This document shows positions 46,823 through 50,579 of a stretch of 64,000 nt of DNA, piece by piece. Each line of letters begins with the position of its first letter. Positions within the stretch are counted from its first letter, which is position 1. Under the pieces are notes generated by a model that made no database searches, had not been told where the DNA came from, and saw nothing but the letters and a program-made list of their open reading frames with translations. Source of the stretch: a virus (Duplodnaviria; Caudoviricetes); the IMG/VR virus record IMGVR_UViG_3300021255_002694. One strand, given 5' to 3'. Both the position numbers and the translations under genes were made by a program.

Positions 46823-46838
46823 AAATTAAAAAAAAAAT

Positions 46839-46909
46839 AGGAAGTTAGTTAAGTGGTAGAACGGCAGTCTCCAAAACTGCATACAGAGGTTCGATTCCTC
46901 TACTTCCTG
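46839..46909 (+). tRNA. tRNA-Trp(CCA)
   Basis: AGGAAGT/ACTTCCT acceptor, GCAGT-CTCCAAA-ACTGC anticodon arm, TTCGATT T loop. Confidence 0.9.
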
Positions 46910-46916
46910 TTCATAC

Positions 46917-46989
46917 GTGCCTGTAGCTCAGTTGGTAGAGCAACGCCCTTTTAAGGCGAAGGTCATGGATTCGAGTTCCATCAGGCACA
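46917..46989 (+). tRNA. tRNA-Lys(TTT)
   Basis: GTGCCTG/CAGGCAC acceptor; CGCC-CTTTTAA-GGCG anticodon arm. Confidence 0.9.
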
Positions 46990-47048
46990 CTCATTGACAT
47001 TTATATAGGTAAGACACTTTAATGAACTGACAAAAGCATTTTAATTAT

Positions 47049-47136
47049 TTGACATTTTCTAACCTCACTTTCTATAAAGAACCAAATCCTGATCAGGTTC
47101 TAGTCGAAATAGTTTTCGATTTGTTTGAGATCAGGA
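47049..47136 (+). ncRNA. Antisense-segment + scaffold RNA, copy A
   Basis: TTGACATTTTCTAACCTCACTTTC, then AAAGAACC / stem TCCTGATC / AGGTTCT / hairpin / TGTTTGA / GATCAGGA. Confidence 0.65.
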
Positions 47137-47173
47137 ATCATAGATTTTATGAAAAAAAAATTCAAAAAACCAC

Positions 47174-47202
47174 TTGACAAAATTAAAAAATTGTGATATA
47201 CT
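47174..47202 (+). promoter_or_regulatory. sigmaA-type promoter driving the ncRNA/tRNA cluster
   Basis: TTGACA-17-TATACT with TG extension and an A-tract UP element. Confidence 0.88.
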
Positions 47203-47208
47203 ATATAT

Positions 47209-47295
47209 GTAATTGACATAGAATTACTCCTATTGGCAAAAAACCATTACAGCTAGGTTTCAATAAGTGCAAGTTATTGTTTTTGAAGCTGTTAA
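47209..47295 (+). ncRNA. Antisense-segment + scaffold RNA, copy B
   Basis: TTGACATAGAATTACTCCT, then CAAAAAACC / ACAGCT / AGGTTT / CAATAA..TTATTG / TTTTTGA / AGCTGT. Confidence 0.65.
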
Positions 47296-47404
47296 GCATT
47301 TAGTGAATTACACTACCAAAAACGGAAAGTATTGTTAGTGATTCAAAAAAAAACCAAAGCAACTAGGTTTCAGATAATTTCACATTCTGTTTTTGAAGTT
47401 GCTT
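47296..47404 (+). ncRNA. Scaffold RNA, copy C (variable 5' segment has no clear anti-SD)
   Basis: CAAAAAAAAACC / AAGCAACT / AGGTTT / CAGA..TCTG / TTTTTGA / AGTTGCTT. Confidence 0.6.
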
Positions 47405-47604
47405 ATATTCGAGTGCTTGAAACAGGAGTGGGGTAATCCATTTAAGGCATATGGCATGTACAGTAACCATTAGAGTTCTAGGAAACTCTTTTGGAGCTGA
47501 TTGCATGTATCGTCACAGGAGATGACTCAGATGTGTTTGATTTCCTAGAATCACACATACCACGATTCAAGTAGTGGCACTCCTGTTTCAAACACTTGAG
47601 TATA
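47404..47604 (+). ncRNA. tRNA-like kissing-loop RNA 1
   Basis: ~27-bp closing stem, a T-arm-like CCAC-GATTCAAGTA-GTGG, and complementary hairpin loops CTAGGA (47478) and TCCTAG (47543). Confidence 0.65.
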
Positions 47605-47605
47605 T

Positions 47606-47677
47606 TCCCCTATAGTTCAGTTGGTAGAATGTGGGACTGTTAATCCTAAGACACTGGTTCAAGTCCAGTTGGGGGAG
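47606..47677 (+). tRNA. tRNA-Asn(GTT)
   Basis: Cloverleaf; anticodon loop CTGTTAA. Confidence 0.9.
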
Positions 47678-47685
47678 TTCATTAT

Positions 47686-47759
47686 GGTTCGGTAGTTCAG
47701 TTGGTTAGAATGCTTGCCTGTCACGCAAGAGGTCGTGGGTTCGATCCCCATCCGAATCG
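47686..47759 (+). tRNA. tRNA-Asp(GTC)
   Basis: Cloverleaf; CTTGC-CTGTCAC-GCAAG. Confidence 0.92.
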
Positions 47760-47765
47760 CTCAAA

Positions 47766-47923
47766 TCACATGGCAGCAAAAATCTTGGTTGAAACAAATG
47801 AATGAGTGGCTATAGGTGATAATATGTAGATGAAAATGCTCACACCTTACCATATGCACCATAGAACCGATTGAGAATAGGGTGTAAAAGCCTTGACTAA
47901 AAGTTTAATGCTCATTGTGTGAT
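47766..47923 (+). ncRNA. Unknown structured RNA
   Basis: ATCACAT/GTGTGAT closing stem, CTATAGGTG/CACCATAG stem, ACACCT/GGGTGT pseudoknot. Confidence 0.45.
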
Positions 47924-47963
47924 CGCCTAAATAAAGCTGGGAATAGGGCGAAATTAAAAAAAT

Positions 47964-48110
47964 CACCTAGTTTCGGTGCAACACTTATCACGGTGCATCG
48001 TTGGTAAGTGTCAAGTGGTATCCGAATATACAAACCGGATGATATTACAGAGGAATGCACTTCTTTGTAGTATTTGAAAGTCGTTGAGGGTTCGATTCCC
48101 TCCTAGGTGT
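47964..48110 (+). ncRNA. tRNA-like kissing-loop RNA 2
   Basis: Perfect 7-bp acceptor CACCTAG/CTAGGTG, canonical T arm GAGGG-TTCGATT-CCCTC, and complementary loops GTGCAT (47993) and ATGCAC (48055). Confidence 0.7.
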
Positions 48111-48207
48111 TTAAAATAAAAGGGAGTTAAGTCGTGGCGGCTTGAGCCTGTTTTAAGGTTCGGGGTGTACCGTACCACGCTAGCCCAAAGTCCATAAACA
48201 CCCATAT

Positions 48208-48294
48208 GCTGGTGTGGTGAAATTGGAAGACACAGCGTGCTTAAACCGCGCTTCCGGATGCGGAGTATGGGTTCAAGTCCCATCACCAGTACCA
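48208..48294 (+). tRNA. tRNA-Leu(TAA)
   Basis: Long variable arm, loop CTTAAAC, encoded CCA. Confidence 0.88.
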
Positions 48295-48320
48295 ATATAT
48301 TAAAGCAAAATTTATTTAAT

Positions 48321-48410
48321 GGCAGCGTGGCAGAGTCCGGCTTAATGCACCAGTCTTGAAAACTGGCGTTCCGAAAGGGACCGTTGGTCCGAATCCAACC
48401 GCTGTCGCCA
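48321..48410 (+). tRNA. tRNA-Ser(TGA)
   Basis: CCAGT-CTTGAAA-ACTGG, long variable arm, encoded CCA; the T loop is TCCGAAT. Confidence 0.9.
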
Positions 48411-48412
48411 AT

Positions 48413-48485
48413 GCTGATATAACTCAACTGGCAGAGTAGTGGTTTTGTAAACCACAAGTTGTGGGTTCAAGTCCCTCTATCAGCT
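48413..48485 (+). tRNA. tRNA-Thr(TGT)
   Basis: GTGGT-TTTGTAA-ACCAC. Confidence 0.9.
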
Positions 48486-48506
48486 TCAAAAATTTACAGT
48501 AAAGGC

Positions 48507-48535
48507 TTGACAAAAACAGAATTTTATGCTATAAT
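48507..48535 (+). promoter_or_regulatory. sigmaA-type promoter
   Basis: TTGACA-17-TATAAT with TG extension (perfect consensus). Confidence 0.9.
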
Positions 48536-48541
48536 ATTTGT

Positions 48542-48630
48542 ATGACATACTTTATCAACTCTTTTGAATCAAAAAACATGCAGTGATGTTTCTATGGATA
48601 TGATTTATGTCTATAGTTTTAGTAACTACA
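48542..48630 (+). ncRNA. Antisense-segment + scaffold RNA, copy D (divergent)
   Basis: ATGACATACTTTATCAACTCTTT, then CAAAAAACAT / GCAGT / ATGTTT / CTATGGA..TCTATAG / TTTTAG / ACTAC. Confidence 0.55.
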
Positions 48631-48637
48631 AAATTAA

Positions 48638-48711
48638 CGGAGTGTGGCTCAGTTTGGTAGATCGCCTGGTTTGGGACCAGGATGCCGCAGGTTCAAGTCC
48701 TGTCACTCCGA
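48638..48711 (+). tRNA. tRNA-Pro(TGG)
   Basis: CCTGG-TTTGGGA-CCAGG. Confidence 0.92.
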
Positions 48712-48718
48712 TTTAACT

Positions 48719-48794
48719 GGAAGGGTAGCTCAGACGGTTAGCAAGCAGCGGTCTTATAAACCGCAGGTCGTGGGTTCGAGTCCCACCTCTTCCA
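48719..48794 (+). tRNA. tRNA-Ile(TAT)
   Basis: GCGGT-CTTATAA-ACCGC anticodon arm, G1-C72, A73. Confidence 0.85.
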
Positions 48795-48888
48795 TTCATG
48801 CTCTACGGAGCGTAATTGATCTTCTGCTATACTGATCAAATCTAATACATCATCACGAAGGCAGAGTAGTGGTGATGTAATTATGAAT
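48794..48888 (+). ncRNA. Small kissing-loop RNA 3
   Basis: Three hairpins inside an ATTCAT/ATGAAT stem; loops TTCTGCT and GGCAGAG are complementary. Confidence 0.55.
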
Positions 48889-48928
48889 AACATTATACTT
48901 GCTTTAATTGTAAGTAAATCATGTTTTT

Positions 48929-49015
<87 letters not shown>

Positions 49016-49019
49016 GTTT

Positions 49020-49168
49020 AGTCATAGGACCGTTGGAGGCTACGATTTACCGATGCAGTCCAGTCAAGGTAATCCCCTAAATCTACACAGGGAACAGAGG
49101 GTATGCAAACGGTGTGTTACTCTAGCAGTAGAAAACATAGCACCGTGACTGATAGGAGAGACTATCAC
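49020..49168 (+). ncRNA. Unknown pseudoknotted RNA
   Basis: AGTCA/TGACT closing stem; ACCGTT/AACGGT, TTACC/GGTAA and TCTAC/GTAGA crossing pairings. Confidence 0.45.
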
Positions 49169-49176
49169 TTATATAT

Positions 49177-49314
49177 GCAGGAATCGTCTAAATGTGGTTG
49201 CGACCAAAAAGAAAGAGTTTGCATTATTCCTAGGTAAGTGATGTGAACTTTAGTAATCCGTAGGACACGAACTGATCATTCGGATGTAGGAGTAGCGACC
49301 TGCTTCCTGCACCA
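49177..49314 (+). tRNA. Remodelled tRNA-Ile(GAT)-like RNA with a ~65-nt D-loop insertion
   Basis: GCAGGAA/TTCCTGC-ACCA acceptor, CGAA-CTGATCA-TTCG anticodon arm, non-canonical T loop AGTAGCGA, and two hairpins inserted in the D loop. Confidence 0.65.
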
Positions 49315-49318
49315 ATAT

Positions 49319-49390
49319 GGCTCTTTCGTCAAGTGGTTAAGACCTCTGTCCGCAAAGCAGATGTCGCTGGTTCAAATCCGGCAAGAGCCT
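49319..49390 (+). tRNA. tRNA-Cys(GCA), with C at position 33
   Basis: TCTGT-CCGCAAA-GCAGA; U73. Confidence 0.85.
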
Positions 49391-49395
49391 TATAT

Positions 49396-49660
49396 GCCCA
49401 AGCACCAGTCCTGAAAAGCACGGTTTGTGTAGCACACAAATGTCAGATGCATAAAGTCAGGTTAAAGTTGAAATTCGCTTGTGCAAAGAATACGGAACTT
49501 CACCGTAGGAGAACAGGTAGACGTACCCAAGAGTAAGTTGCAAGGGCTTAGAACTCTTAGCACGTAGCGTCAACGGAGTCCGGAATCAGGTTAGGATGGT
49601 TTCTTTGAAATATATGCACCGATAAATGTGGTGTCCTGATGAATGACGTAAAAAACCATT
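49396..49660 (+). ncRNA. One or two unknown highly paired RNAs
   Basis: GCCC/GGGC, CCTGA/TCAGG, TACGG/CCGTA and AAGAGT/ACTCTT; then CGTCA/TGACG, ATCAGG/CCTGAT and ATGGTTT/AAACCAT. Confidence 0.5.
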
Positions 49661-49662
49661 TT

Positions 49663-49737
49663 GCAGATGTAGTTTAATGGCTAGAACCTGTGACTTCCAC
49701 TCACAAGACGGGGGTTCGATTCCCCTCATCTGCTCCA
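49663..49737 (+). tRNA. tRNA-Gly(TCC)
   Basis: TGTGA-CTTCCAC-TCACA; TCCA end. Confidence 0.92.
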
Positions 49738-49743
49738 TTATTT

Positions 49744-49815
49744 GCCCCATTAGTTCATCGGACAGAATAAATCCCTTCTAAGGATCAGAGCGCGGTTCAA
49801 TTCCGTGATGGGGTG
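49744..49815 (+). tRNA. tRNA-Arg(TCT)
   Basis: ATCC-CTTCTAA-GGAT anticodon arm. Confidence 0.88.
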
Positions 49816-49978
49816 TCAAAACGCATCGAAATATCTGAATACCATAGCAACATGGAAACAGATAGACAAAATTTTATTTTTGTTCGTTCCCCGATTAGAT
49901 GTGTTTCAATTAAATAGGGAAAACTGCACATATAAGTTGCATTATACATGAAAGTGCAGATATATAAAGGAGATAAAC

Positions 49979-50317
49979 ATGAAATCAGTGCTTATTGTGA
50001 TCATAGCAATGTATCTTGTTTTTGCTATAACTGATGTAATTTGTTGTCCGATTCTATATCAGAAAGTGTTTTATAGAGTATGCAAGGATTCATTCAATGA
50101 TGATCAAGATGCATCGGTGGTTTCAAGAAAACTTGCTAGAGAATTTACATTTCGTTTTGCTTTTGTTCCACTTGCAAATATAGCAATTTTCATATTTTCA
50201 TTTTTAGACAATGATATTTTATGTGAACTTGAAATGTTTACATATAATATGTTTATGGAAGATGAAGATGCTAAATATGCACTTGCAGAGGAATTGAAAG
50301 AAATTAAGAAAGATTAA
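49979..50317 (+). CDS. Hypothetical membrane protein inside the tRNA cluster
   Basis: AAGGAG RBS; two hydrophobic segments. Confidence 0.65.
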   Translation: MKSVLIVIIAMYLVFAITDVICCPILYQKVFYRVCKDSFNDDQDASVVSRKLAREFTFRFAFVPLANIAIFIFSFLDNDILCELEMFTYNMFMEDEDAKYALAEELKEIKKD

Positions 50318-50321
50318 ATAC

Positions 50322-50403
50322 GGGAGTGTCGCCTAGTGGCAATGGCATCTGACTGTAAATCAGACGGTTTTATCCTTCGTTGGTTCAAGTCCAACCACTC
50401 CCA
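50322..50403 (+). tRNA. tRNA-Tyr(GTA)
   Basis: TCTGA-CTGTAAA-TCAGA; long variable arm. Confidence 0.92.
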
Positions 50404-50413
50404 TTATCTATAA

Positions 50414-50497
50414 TGCCGTGTCGCCAAGTGGAAAGGCAGCGGACTTTGACTCCGCCAGCATTTATGCTTTACGTTGGTTCAAATCCAGCCACGGCAA
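50414..50497 (+). tRNA. tRNA-Gln(TTG) with a long variable arm
   Basis: U1-A72, GCGGA-CTTTGAC-TCCGC, extra arm AGCAT-TT-ATGCT. Confidence 0.85.
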
Positions 50498-50504
50498 TTC
50501 AATA

Positions 50505-50579
50505 GGTCCTATCGTCTAGTCTGGTCTAGGACGAGAGATTTTCATTCTCTAAACATCGGTTCAAATCCGGTTAGGATCA
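50505..50579 (+). tRNA. tRNA-Glu(TTC)
   Basis: AGAGA-TTTTCAT-TCTCT. Confidence 0.9.

What the first reader, a model, noticed from the sequence alone, without database searches (positions are those of the whole stretch)
47404..48110. Two tRNA-mimic RNAs in which the anticodon region is replaced by kissing hairpins
Seen: RNA 1 (47404-47604) and RNA 2 (47964-48110) share a topology despite unrelated sequence: acceptor-like stem, hairpin A, small middle hairpin, hairpin B, T arm. The loops of A and B are exact 6-nt complements (CTAGGA:TCCTAG; GTGCAT:ATGCAC). RNA 2 has a textbook 7-bp acceptor and TTCGATT T loop, while RNA 1 has a ~27-bp extended stem. Neither has an anticodon arm or a tmRNA tag ORF. 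Inference: a new class of tRNA-processed RNAs, possibly decoys for anticodon nucleases/tRNA-sensing defences, or self-assembling scaffolds.
Basis: partly seen in the sequence, partly recalled or inferred. Interest (0 to 1): 0.75.

Follow-up and report, generated by a model that had tools for sequence, protein, structure and literature searches.

The report
Phage tRNA-like RNAs with kissing arms
In the tRNA gene cluster of a 323-kb sheep-rumen phage, one conserved 147-nt gene (and one strain-specific 201-nt insert) keeps the top half of a tRNA but replaces the rest with two long arms whose tips can pair, the same plan I find, backed by compensatory changes, in phage T4's "species 1" RNA, whose role is still unknown.

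Summary
Both RNAs fold well on the + strand, and each has two 6-nt hairpin loops that are exact complements.

**RNA 2 (47964-48110)** is a real, discrete, tRNA-gene-like cassette.
- It has a 7-bp acceptor stem and a canonical T arm.
- It is intact in 5 sister phages. In two of them it lies 7 nt from the next tRNA.
- 20 of 21 variable sites fall in stems, and 95-96% of pairs are kept.
- All loops and junctions are invariant.
- It is accessory: absent in 3 sisters and disrupted in 1.

**RNA 1 (47404-47604)** is a 196-nt insertion found only in this strain.
- All ten sister contigs that reach the site show the empty-site junction.
- It has no homolog and no canonical T arm, and it is closed by a 26-bp stem.
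- Its status rests on folding alone.

**Known families.** Neither RNA matches any Rfam family, tRNA or tmRNA model. The closest known thing is T4 rnaC (species 1 RNA), which has no Rfam family:
- It shows the same plan: an acceptor-like stem, a long arm, a second arm and a T arm.
- Its arm tips are complementary, with two independent compensatory changes among 9 T4-like phages.
- Covariance models detect no homology between RNA 2 and rnaC.

So this is a new variant of an old, unexplained kind, not a new class. The function (a tRNA top-half mimic or decoy) is inference only.

Other first-stage notes flagged this same stretch. The scan holds no look-alike in other genomes.

The parts
47174..47202 (+). 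sigma-70-type promoter-like site (TTGACA, 17 nt, TG-TATACT) upstream of RNA 1, tRNA-Asn, tRNA-Asp and RNA 2
   Evidence: 11 of 12 matches with an extended -10. A consensus match only.
47404..47604 (+). RNA 1, 201 nt: closing stem, long arm, small hairpin, second arm, T-like hairpin
47406..47601 (+). the 196-nt stretch missing from every sister phage (empty site GCTTA-ATG-TTCCCC)
47404..47430 (+). 5' strand of RNA 1's 26-bp closing stem
   Evidence: It has two G.U pairs on the + strand only.
47578..47604 (+). 3' strand of RNA 1's closing stem. It ends 1 nt before tRNA-Asn.
47478..47483 (+). RNA 1 loop CUAGGA at the tip of the long arm
47543..47548 (+). RNA 1 loop UCCUAG, the exact complement of 47478-47483
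47560..47577 (+). RNA 1 T-like hairpin (4-bp stem, 10-nt loop containing UUCAA), directly abutting the closing stem
   Evidence: Not a canonical T arm.
47605..47678 (+). tRNA-Asn(GUU). Its 5' end abuts the 3' end of RNA 1.
47964..48110 (+). RNA 2, 147 nt, a tRNA-like cassette
47964..47970 (+). RNA 2 acceptor stem, 5' strand (CACCUAG)
   Evidence: Invariant in 6 copies.
47981..48011 (+). RNA 2 arm A (12 bp plus a bulge) with loop GUGCAU at 47993-47998. One C-G to U-A compensatory change.
48020..48040 (+). linker, or a 5-bp 'middle hairpin' with an 11-nt loop (model-dependent). The loop sequence is invariant.
48041..48074 (+). RNA 2 arm B (14 bp) with loop AUGCAC at 48055-48060
48086..48102 (+). 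RNA 2 T arm (GAGGG, UUCGAUU, CCCUC)
48103..48110 (+). RNA 2 acceptor stem, 3' strand, plus discriminator U. No CCA is encoded.

Best explanation
**RNA 2** is a gene for a tRNA-derived small RNA.
- It keeps the coaxial acceptor/T-arm half of a tRNA.
- The D and anticodon regions are replaced by two long helical arms (about 20 bp and 14 bp). Their 6-nt apical loops can form a 6-bp kissing helix that would hold the arms side by side.

How it most likely works (inferred):
- It is transcribed with tRNA-Asn and tRNA-Asp from the promoter-like site at 47174.
- It is cut out by the tRNA-processing enzymes. By established knowledge, RNase P, RNase Z or exonucleases, and the CCA-adding enzyme need only the top half of a tRNA.
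- It then persists as a compact, stable RNA that cannot decode.

It is the same architectural kind as phage T4 species 1 RNA (rnaC).

**RNA 1** has the same inner plan, but it is a recent, strain-specific 196-nt insertion.
- It is closed by a 26-bp leader-trailer stem, which is more likely an RNase III target than an RNase P substrate.
- Its 3' end abuts tRNA-Asn.

**Most likely role (inferred, about 0.25-0.3):** a mimic of the tRNA top half. It would occupy or soak up a protein that recognises the acceptor end or elbow of tRNAs. A host defence toxin acting on tRNA 3' ends or elbows is one example. The RNA itself would be useless to the ribosome.
For: **Shown**
- Folding and strand bias.
- Canonical acceptor stem and T arm in RNA 2.
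- Cassette behaviour. RNA 2 is intact in L015, L024, L038, L109 and L110. In L024 and L110 it lies 7 nt before tRNA-Leu, and in L024 also 7 nt after tRNA-Asp. The flanking spacers 47770-47958 and 48118-48203 are missing in L024.
- 95-96% of pair cells are kept. 20 of 94 paired columns vary against 1 of 53 unpaired, p about 0.001. One C-G to U-A compensatory change occurs.
- After its own copies, the best hits of the RNA 2 model are class II tRNA-Ser genes.
- T4 rnaC lies 6 nt from rnaD, which lies 1 nt from tRNA-Arg.
- rnaC folds into an acceptor-like stem, a long arm, a 10-bp arm and a canonical T arm.
- Its tips UUGACG and CGUCAA pair in 9 of 9 T4-like phages. The changes are A-U to G-C (kv_tblp2, Marfa) and C-G to U-A (phiR1-RT), with no one-sided changes.
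- T4 RNAC is an expressed RNA of unknown role (PMC9697503, PMC3014915).

**Inferred**
- Co-transcription, from the promoter match.
- Processing, from what is known of RNase P and the CCA-adding enzyme.
- Function.
Against: - No expression or end-mapping data were available.
- The RNA 2 loops never vary in the six copies, so the kissing pair has no covariation of its own. A second copy of CGGUGCA at RNA 2 nt 11-17 could pair with loop B instead.
- A 6-nt loop-loop match is not rare genome-wide (2.3% of windows).
- RNA 2 is dispensable: absent in L033, L039 and L053, and disrupted by a 313-nt replacement in L047.
- RNA 1 has no homolog anywhere I could search, no canonical T arm, and a closing stem that should block RNase P.
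- There is no detectable homology between RNA 2 and rnaC (6 bits with filters off). The shared plan could be convergence or coincidence.
- A decoy for anticodon nucleases is unlikely, because there is no anticodon-loop mimic.
Confidence: 0.55

Rival explanations
1. Decaying tRNA genes or by-products of recombination. The array is churned by homing endonucleases and insertion elements. RNA 1 and RNA 2 would be tRNA remnants with captured inserts and no function of their own.
For: - Patchy distribution: RNA 2 is absent in 3 sisters and disrupted in 1, and RNA 1 occurs in one strain only.
- Sister arrays carry HNH, GIY-YIG, DUF559 and TnpB genes.
- In L015, a 69-nt insert splits the anticodon of tRNA-Ile(UAU).
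Against: - In RNA 2, substitutions avoid loops and junctions (p about 0.001) and preserve pairing, with one compensatory change. A pseudogene would not show this.
- The T4 counterpart is conserved, with 28 covarying pairs.
Confidence: 0.2
2. Self-assembling RNAs. The complementary loops pair between molecules, not within one, and build dimers or chains, as the kissing loops of the ROOL and GOLLD cages do.
For: - Both loop pairs have palindromic cores (CUAG, UGCA), so each loop can also pair with its own kind.
- A neighbouring tRNA-like RNA (hairpin loop at 49229) and a 151-nt tRNA-like RNA in a distant relative (L007 15698-15848) carry CCUAGG loops.
- ROOL and GOLLD lie near phage tRNA islands and use kissing loops (PMC12286853).
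Against: - There is no match to ROOL or GOLLD.
- Two loops on one small molecule beside a flexible 14-nt linker favour pairing within the molecule.
- There are no data on oligomers.
Confidence: 0.12
3. RNA 1 is a small DNA-level mobile element (MITE-like, with terminal inverted repeats), not an RNA gene.
For: - It is a precise 196-nt presence/absence difference, bounded by its own 26-bp inverted repeat.
- IS605-type TnpB genes sit in sister arrays.
Against: - There is no target-site duplication; instead ATG became ATA at the junction.
- No second copy occurs in the 64-kb window, the sister loci or the 207-kb relative.
- The two non-Watson-Crick positions of the repeat are G.U only on the + strand, and the + strand folds 13.6 kcal/mol better.
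- It shows no similarity to the TnpB flanks in L047.
Confidence: 0.13

Closest known systems
Phage T4 species 1 RNA (rnaC, NC_000866 70908-71046) and its homologs in T4-like phages
   Same: - It is encoded inside the phage tRNA cluster, a few nt from its neighbours.
- It has a similar size (139 nt against 147 nt).
- It has a 7-position acceptor-like stem directly followed by a canonical T arm.
- It has a long first arm, an A/U-rich linker and a shorter second arm.
- The 6-nt arm tips are complementary.
- Its role is unknown.
- The array also holds a homing endonuclease.
   Different: - There is no detectable sequence or covariance-model similarity.
- The T4 acceptor stem has two U.U mismatches.
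- In T4 one tip is partly inside a stem.
- In T4 only 1 nt separates the second arm from the T arm, against 11 nt in RNA 2.
- The host and phage lineage are unrelated.
- The T4 loop pairing has covariation; the RNA 2 loops are invariant.
Class II tRNAs (Ser, Leu)
   Same: - A 7-bp acceptor stem, a T arm with a UUCGAUU loop, U8, and an AAGUGGUA D-loop-like motif.
- The next-best hits of the RNA 2 model are tRNA-Ser genes.
   Different: - There is no 7-nt anticodon loop.
- ARAGORN and the Rfam tRNA model do not call it.
- ARAGORN's relaxed intron mode gives inconsistent identities.
tRNA-like domains of tmRNA and of bacterial Y RNA (YrlA)
   Same: A tRNA top half grafted onto a non-tRNA body. In YrlA a long stem is formed by the 5' and 3' ends, which resembles RNA 1 (PMC4201824).
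   Different: - No tag reading frame, no G3.U70, and no ARAGORN tmRNA call.
- No Rfam Y RNA hit.
- No rsr gene was seen among the window proteins I scanned; that scan was not exhaustive.
ROOL and GOLLD ornate RNAs
   Same: They are phage-borne, lie near tRNA islands, occur in rumen samples and use kissing loops (PMC12286853).
   Different: They are three to five times larger, and no covariance-model match was found at E<=10.

Membership tests
canonical tRNA | 7-bp acceptor stem directly followed by a 5-bp T stem with a UUCRANY loop | tested here: met
   RNA 2 meets it. RNA 1 does not: it has a 26-bp closing stem and a 4-bp stem with a 10-nt loop.
canonical tRNA | 5-bp anticodon stem with a 7-nt loop (U33, purine 37); called by ARAGORN or Rfam RF00005 | tested here: not met
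   The only candidate is a 5-bp stem with an 11-nt loop. ARAGORN's intron-mode calls are inconsistent.
tmRNA | tRNA-Ala-like end with G3.U70 plus a tag reading frame | tested here: not met
   ARAGORN finds no tmRNA. The acceptor stem has C3-G70. The only tmRNA-type Rfam match in the region (permuted tmRNA, 15 bits, 49707-49829) lies outside both RNAs and far below its threshold.
T4 species 1 RNA (rnaC) type | lies in a phage tRNA cluster a few nt from tRNA genes | tested here: met
   RNA 2 lies 7 nt from tRNA-Asp and from tRNA-Leu in L024, and 7 nt from tRNA-Leu in L110. RNA 1 abuts tRNA-Asn.
T4 species 1 RNA (rnaC) type | acceptor-like stem plus T arm, enclosing two arms with complementary apical hexamers | tested here: met
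   RNA 2. T4 family. RNA 1 meets it only partly, because its T hairpin is non-canonical.
T4 species 1 RNA (rnaC) type | sequence or covariance-model homology to rnaC | tested here: not met
   The rnaC model scores RNA 2 at 6.0 bits (E 0.14 in 951 nt, filters off). The RNA 2 model finds nothing but tRNAs in T4.
T4 species 1 RNA (rnaC) type | stable processed transcript during infection | not testable with these tools
bacterial Y RNA / YrlA | Ro-binding stem formed by the two ends, a tRNA-like module, and a neighbouring rsr gene | tested here: not met
   No Rfam Y RNA hit at E<=10. No TROVE-domain protein among 29 window proteins scanned. The rest of the 323-kb genome was not searched.
ROOL / GOLLD | match to the Rfam covariance model | tested here: not met
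MITE | several copies, terminal inverted repeats, and a target-site duplication | tested here: not met
   RNA 1 has inverted repeats only. There is no duplication at the junction and no second copy.

The most novel reading that the evidence does not exclude
Unrelated large phages, T4 included, repeatedly build 'kissing-arm tRNA mimics'. These are RNAs that tRNA-processing enzymes mature and CCA-tail, but whose lower half is locked by a loop-loop helix. They would serve as sponges for host factors that attack or sense the tRNA acceptor end or elbow. This would finally give a function to T4 species 1 RNA.
Probability: 0.15. Interest if true: 0.85.

Novelty: new variant of a known kind. Interest (0 to 1): 0.6.

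Why it matters
Small stable RNAs in phage tRNA clusters have been known in T4 for about fifty years without a function.

Two results make the question testable:
- A rumen jumbo phage carries an unrelated RNA with the same plan.
- The loop-loop helix of T4 rnaC covaries.

Together these define a concrete structural signature: a tRNA top half plus two kissing arms. That signature can be searched for in other phages. It can also be tested by loop and compensatory mutants in T4, a tractable system.

The work also documents how fast tRNA arrays of sister phages swap RNA cassettes.

Tried and rejected
**Family and model searches**
- Rfam at gathering thresholds and at E<=10 gave only tRNAs. T4 rnaC has no Rfam family either.
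- ARAGORN with introns allowed and lowered thresholds gave different identities in the window and in L015 (Ser or Tyr against Leu). I rejected these as noise.
- Cross-searching the RNA 2 and rnaC covariance models showed no homology.

**The split-tRNA idea**
- In L047 the shared ends of RNA 2 add up to about 75 nt. Joined sequences gave inconsistent ARAGORN calls, so I rejected the idea.

**Homologs of RNA 1**
- blastn against all fetched loci.
- The whole 207-kb relative.
- Exact patterns in IMG/VR and in GTDB genomes.
- The scan's own index.
- Only chance hits in coding DNA turned up.

**Homologs of RNA 2**
- Nothing in INPHARED phages, IMG/VR or GTDB.
- It was found only through sister contigs reached by neighbouring proteins.

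**Other**
- The covariation test on RNA 2 alone is uninformative with such close sequences.

Full report
**Setting.**
- The window comes from a 323.5-kb contig of a sheep-rumen metagenome. It is a myovirus-like jumbo phage with its own replication genes.
- Positions 46838-50579 hold 16 tRNA genes on the + strand, separated by unusually long non-coding gaps.
- Two near-perfect sigma-70-type promoter matches with extended -10 boxes lie at 47174-47202 and 48507-48535.
- RNA 1, tRNA-Asn, tRNA-Asp and RNA 2 all lie downstream of the first promoter match.

**The observation.**
- RNA 1 (47404-47604) folds at -76.9 kcal/mol, z -7.7. RNA 2 (47964-48110) folds at -48.5 kcal/mol, z -3.65.
- The reverse strands fold 13-14 kcal/mol worse.
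- The four loops are as described and are exact complements.
- RNA 2 has a perfect 7-bp acceptor stem, a GAGGG/CCCUC T stem and a UUCGAUU loop. A simple acceptor-plus-T-arm scan finds it alongside the real tRNAs.
- RNA 1 is closed by 26 bp with a single 1x1 mismatch. Without that stem, its inner part folds only moderately better than shuffles (z -2.4).
- RNA 1's 'T arm' is a 4-bp stem with a 10-nt loop containing UUCAA. It directly abuts the closing stem, but it is not canonical.
- As a chance control, I folded shuffles and the whole window. A loop-loop complement of at least 6 nt appears in 0.4-0.8% of shuffles and in 2.3% of 180-nt windows. The complementarity alone is therefore suggestive, not decisive.

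**Known families.**
- Rfam gives nothing but tRNAs, even at E<=10.
- ARAGORN calls no tmRNA.
- Relaxed intron-mode calls are mutually inconsistent.

**Sister phages.**
- I reached twelve related contigs that cover at least one of the two sites. The route was members of the 90%-identity protein clusters of two genes: one flanks the array and the other lies within it.
- They are 87-97% identical to the window over this region.

**RNA 1 in the sisters.**
- RNA 1 is absent from all ten sister contigs that reach the site: L015, L024, L033, L035, L038, L039, L047, L048, L053 and L054. L054 ends 63 nt beyond the junction.
- Window 47405 joins directly to 47602 in each.
- The empty site reads GCTTA-ATG-TTCCCC. 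The window reads GCTTA-[196 nt]-ATA-TTCCCC.
- RNA 1 is therefore a precise, strain-specific insertion bounded by its own inverted repeat. It has no target duplication and no second copy anywhere I could look.
- The two wobble positions of its stem pair only on the + strand, which argues for an RNA-level hairpin.
- With a single sequence, nothing more can be shown.

**RNA 2 in the sisters.**
- RNA 2 is intact in L015, L024, L038, L109 and L110.
- It is absent in L033, L039 and L053, where tRNA-Asp is followed directly by tRNA-Leu, or where a larger deletion occurs.
- In L047 its middle (about nt 39-110) is replaced by about 313 nt of A/T-rich DNA, while both ends remain.
- In L024 the spacers 47770-47958 and 48118-48203 are missing. 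RNA 2 then lies 7 nt after tRNA-Asp and 7 nt before tRNA-Leu(UAA). In L110 it also lies 7 nt before tRNA-Leu.
- RNA 2 thus behaves as a discrete, tRNA-gene-like, accessory cassette.
- Across six copies, 21 columns vary. 20 of 94 paired columns vary against 1 of 53 unpaired, Fisher p about 0.001.
- 95-96% of pair cells remain standard pairs. When the partners are slid, only about 40% remain standard pairs.
- One pair changes from C-G to U-A, with a C.A intermediate in L038.
- All loops, the 14-nt linker and the junctions are invariant. This is the signature of a functional structured RNA whose single-stranded parts matter.
- It gives no covariation for the kissing pair itself.

**Secondary structure of RNA 2.** Two models fit.
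- The MFE fold has five helices, including a 5-bp middle hairpin with an 11-nt loop at the anticodon position.
- The RNAalifold consensus is a four-way cloverleaf. It has the acceptor stem, one long arm at the D position (5+3+12 bp, loop GUGCAU), a 14-nt linker, a 14-bp arm (loop AUGCAC), 11 nt and the T arm.
- Three of six copies break the innermost pair of the middle hairpin, which mildly favours the cloverleaf.
- An AAGUGGUA motif matches the D loops of the phage's own tRNAs.
- After its own copies, the best hits of a covariance model of RNA 2 are class II tRNA-Ser genes at 20-24 bits.
- RNA 2 is therefore most simply a much-remodelled tRNA.
- A caveat: CGGUGCA occurs twice (nt 11-17 and 28-34), so loop B has an alternative partner.

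**The T4 parallel.**
- T4 encodes two small stable RNAs of unknown role in its tRNA cluster (PMC3014915, PMC9697503).
- rnaC (139 nt) lies 6 nt from rnaD, which lies 1 nt from tRNA-Arg. The cluster also holds the homing endonuclease segB.
- rnaC folds into an acceptor-like 7-position stem, a long arm, an A/U-rich linker, a 10-bp arm and a canonical T arm.
- Its arm tips, UUGACG (nt 43-48) and CGUCAA (nt 97-102), are exact complements.
- I aligned nine diverged homologs. The secondary structure shows 28 pairs with changes on both sides (0 of 500 shuffles reach this).
- The six-pair loop-loop helix is paired in 54 of 54 cells. There are two independent compensatory changes: A-U to G-C in Klebsiella phages kv_tblp2 and Marfa, and C-G to U-A in Yersinia phage phiR1-RT. 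There are no one-sided changes.
- I found no paper in the held library that describes this interaction, and Rfam has no family for rnaC.
- Covariance models give no evidence that RNA 2 and rnaC are homologous. The likeness is one of design.

**Mechanism.**
- Shown: the sequence-level anatomy, the cassette behaviour, the selection pattern in RNA 2, and the covarying kissing helix in T4 rnaC.
- Inferred from established knowledge of RNase P, RNase Z and the CCA-adding enzyme (all of which act on the acceptor/T-arm half): RNA 2 is excised and CCA-tailed like a tRNA.
- Inferred from geometry: the kissing helix clamps the two arms together and gives a compact, stable RNA that cannot decode.
- Speculative: a role as a mimic or sponge for a factor that binds the tRNA top half. 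An anticodon-nuclease decoy is unlikely, because nothing resembles an anticodon loop.
- RNA 1's 26-bp leader-trailer stem should hinder RNase P and suits RNase III. RNase P cleavage of tRNA-Asn would define its 3' end.

**Verdict.**
- RNA 2 is a real, conserved but accessory, tRNA-derived RNA gene of the T4 species 1 kind.
- RNA 1 is an orphan, strain-specific insert with a similar plan and unproven status.
- The 'new class' claim is replaced by 'new variant of an old, unexplained kind'. The added result is that this kind has a conserved kissing-arm architecture.

Noticed in passing
L015 2481-2549 (matches window 48755/48756, inside tRNA-Ile 48718-48795); probably also L024 8252-8396: In sister phages the tRNA-Ile(UAU) gene carries a 69-nt insert exactly between anticodon nt 34 and 35. 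The insert begins GATTCAA and ends TTGAATC-ACCA, so it has its own 7-bp stem followed by ACCA. The window's copy is intact.
   Followed up: partly
L055 1409-1547 (-), i.e. T4 NC_000866 70908-71046; alignment A8: T4 rnaC has a loop-loop helix (UUGACG with CGUCAA) with two compensatory changes among nine T4-like phages. I found no description of this in Rfam or in the held literature.
   Followed up: yes
L007 15698-15848: A more distant relative (207-kb IMG/VR contig) has a 151-nt tRNA-like RNA just upstream of tRNA-Asn. It has a 7-bp acceptor stem, a D arm, a 7-nt non-canonical 'anticodon' loop, a ~75-nt extra arm tipped by the palindrome CCUAGG, and a T arm.
   Followed up: partly
window 49170-49318: A third tRNA-like RNA. 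Its closing stem is followed by an encoded ACCA, and a 15-bp hairpin carries a CCUAGG-containing loop at 49229. That loop could pair with 5 nt of either RNA 1 loop. The region is 96% conserved in L015.
   Followed up: partly
window 47605-47683 against L015 1135-1402, L033 and L035: Some sisters carry a different tRNA-Asn allele (77-79% identical) followed by a structured 189-nt element before tRNA-Asp. The window, L024, L038 and L047 have the other allele with tRNA-Asp 5-7 nt downstream.
   Followed up: partly
L047 8606-9736; L109 3364-4614; L016 3276-3989; L003 1433-2107; L024 5572-6009; L038 8349-9038: Sister tRNA arrays hold TnpB (OrfB_IS605/Cas12f-like), GIY-YIG, HNH and DUF559 endonuclease genes, plus an S-AdoMet lyase gene. 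None of these is present in the window's array. The array is a hot spot for mobile DNA.
   Followed up: no
window 48796-48928: Two adjacent hairpins with 12-nt loops that share a 5-nt complement (UCUGC with GCAGA). The region is 93-97% conserved in sisters.
   Followed up: no
window 47230-47403 and around 47960: Repeated hairpin units contain CTAGGTTTCA, each preceded by an A-run. RNA 2's 5' end (A-run, then CACCTAGTTTCGG) resembles their start. CTAG occurs 17 times in about 4 kb of the array, against about 2 per kb in the whole window.
   Followed up: partly
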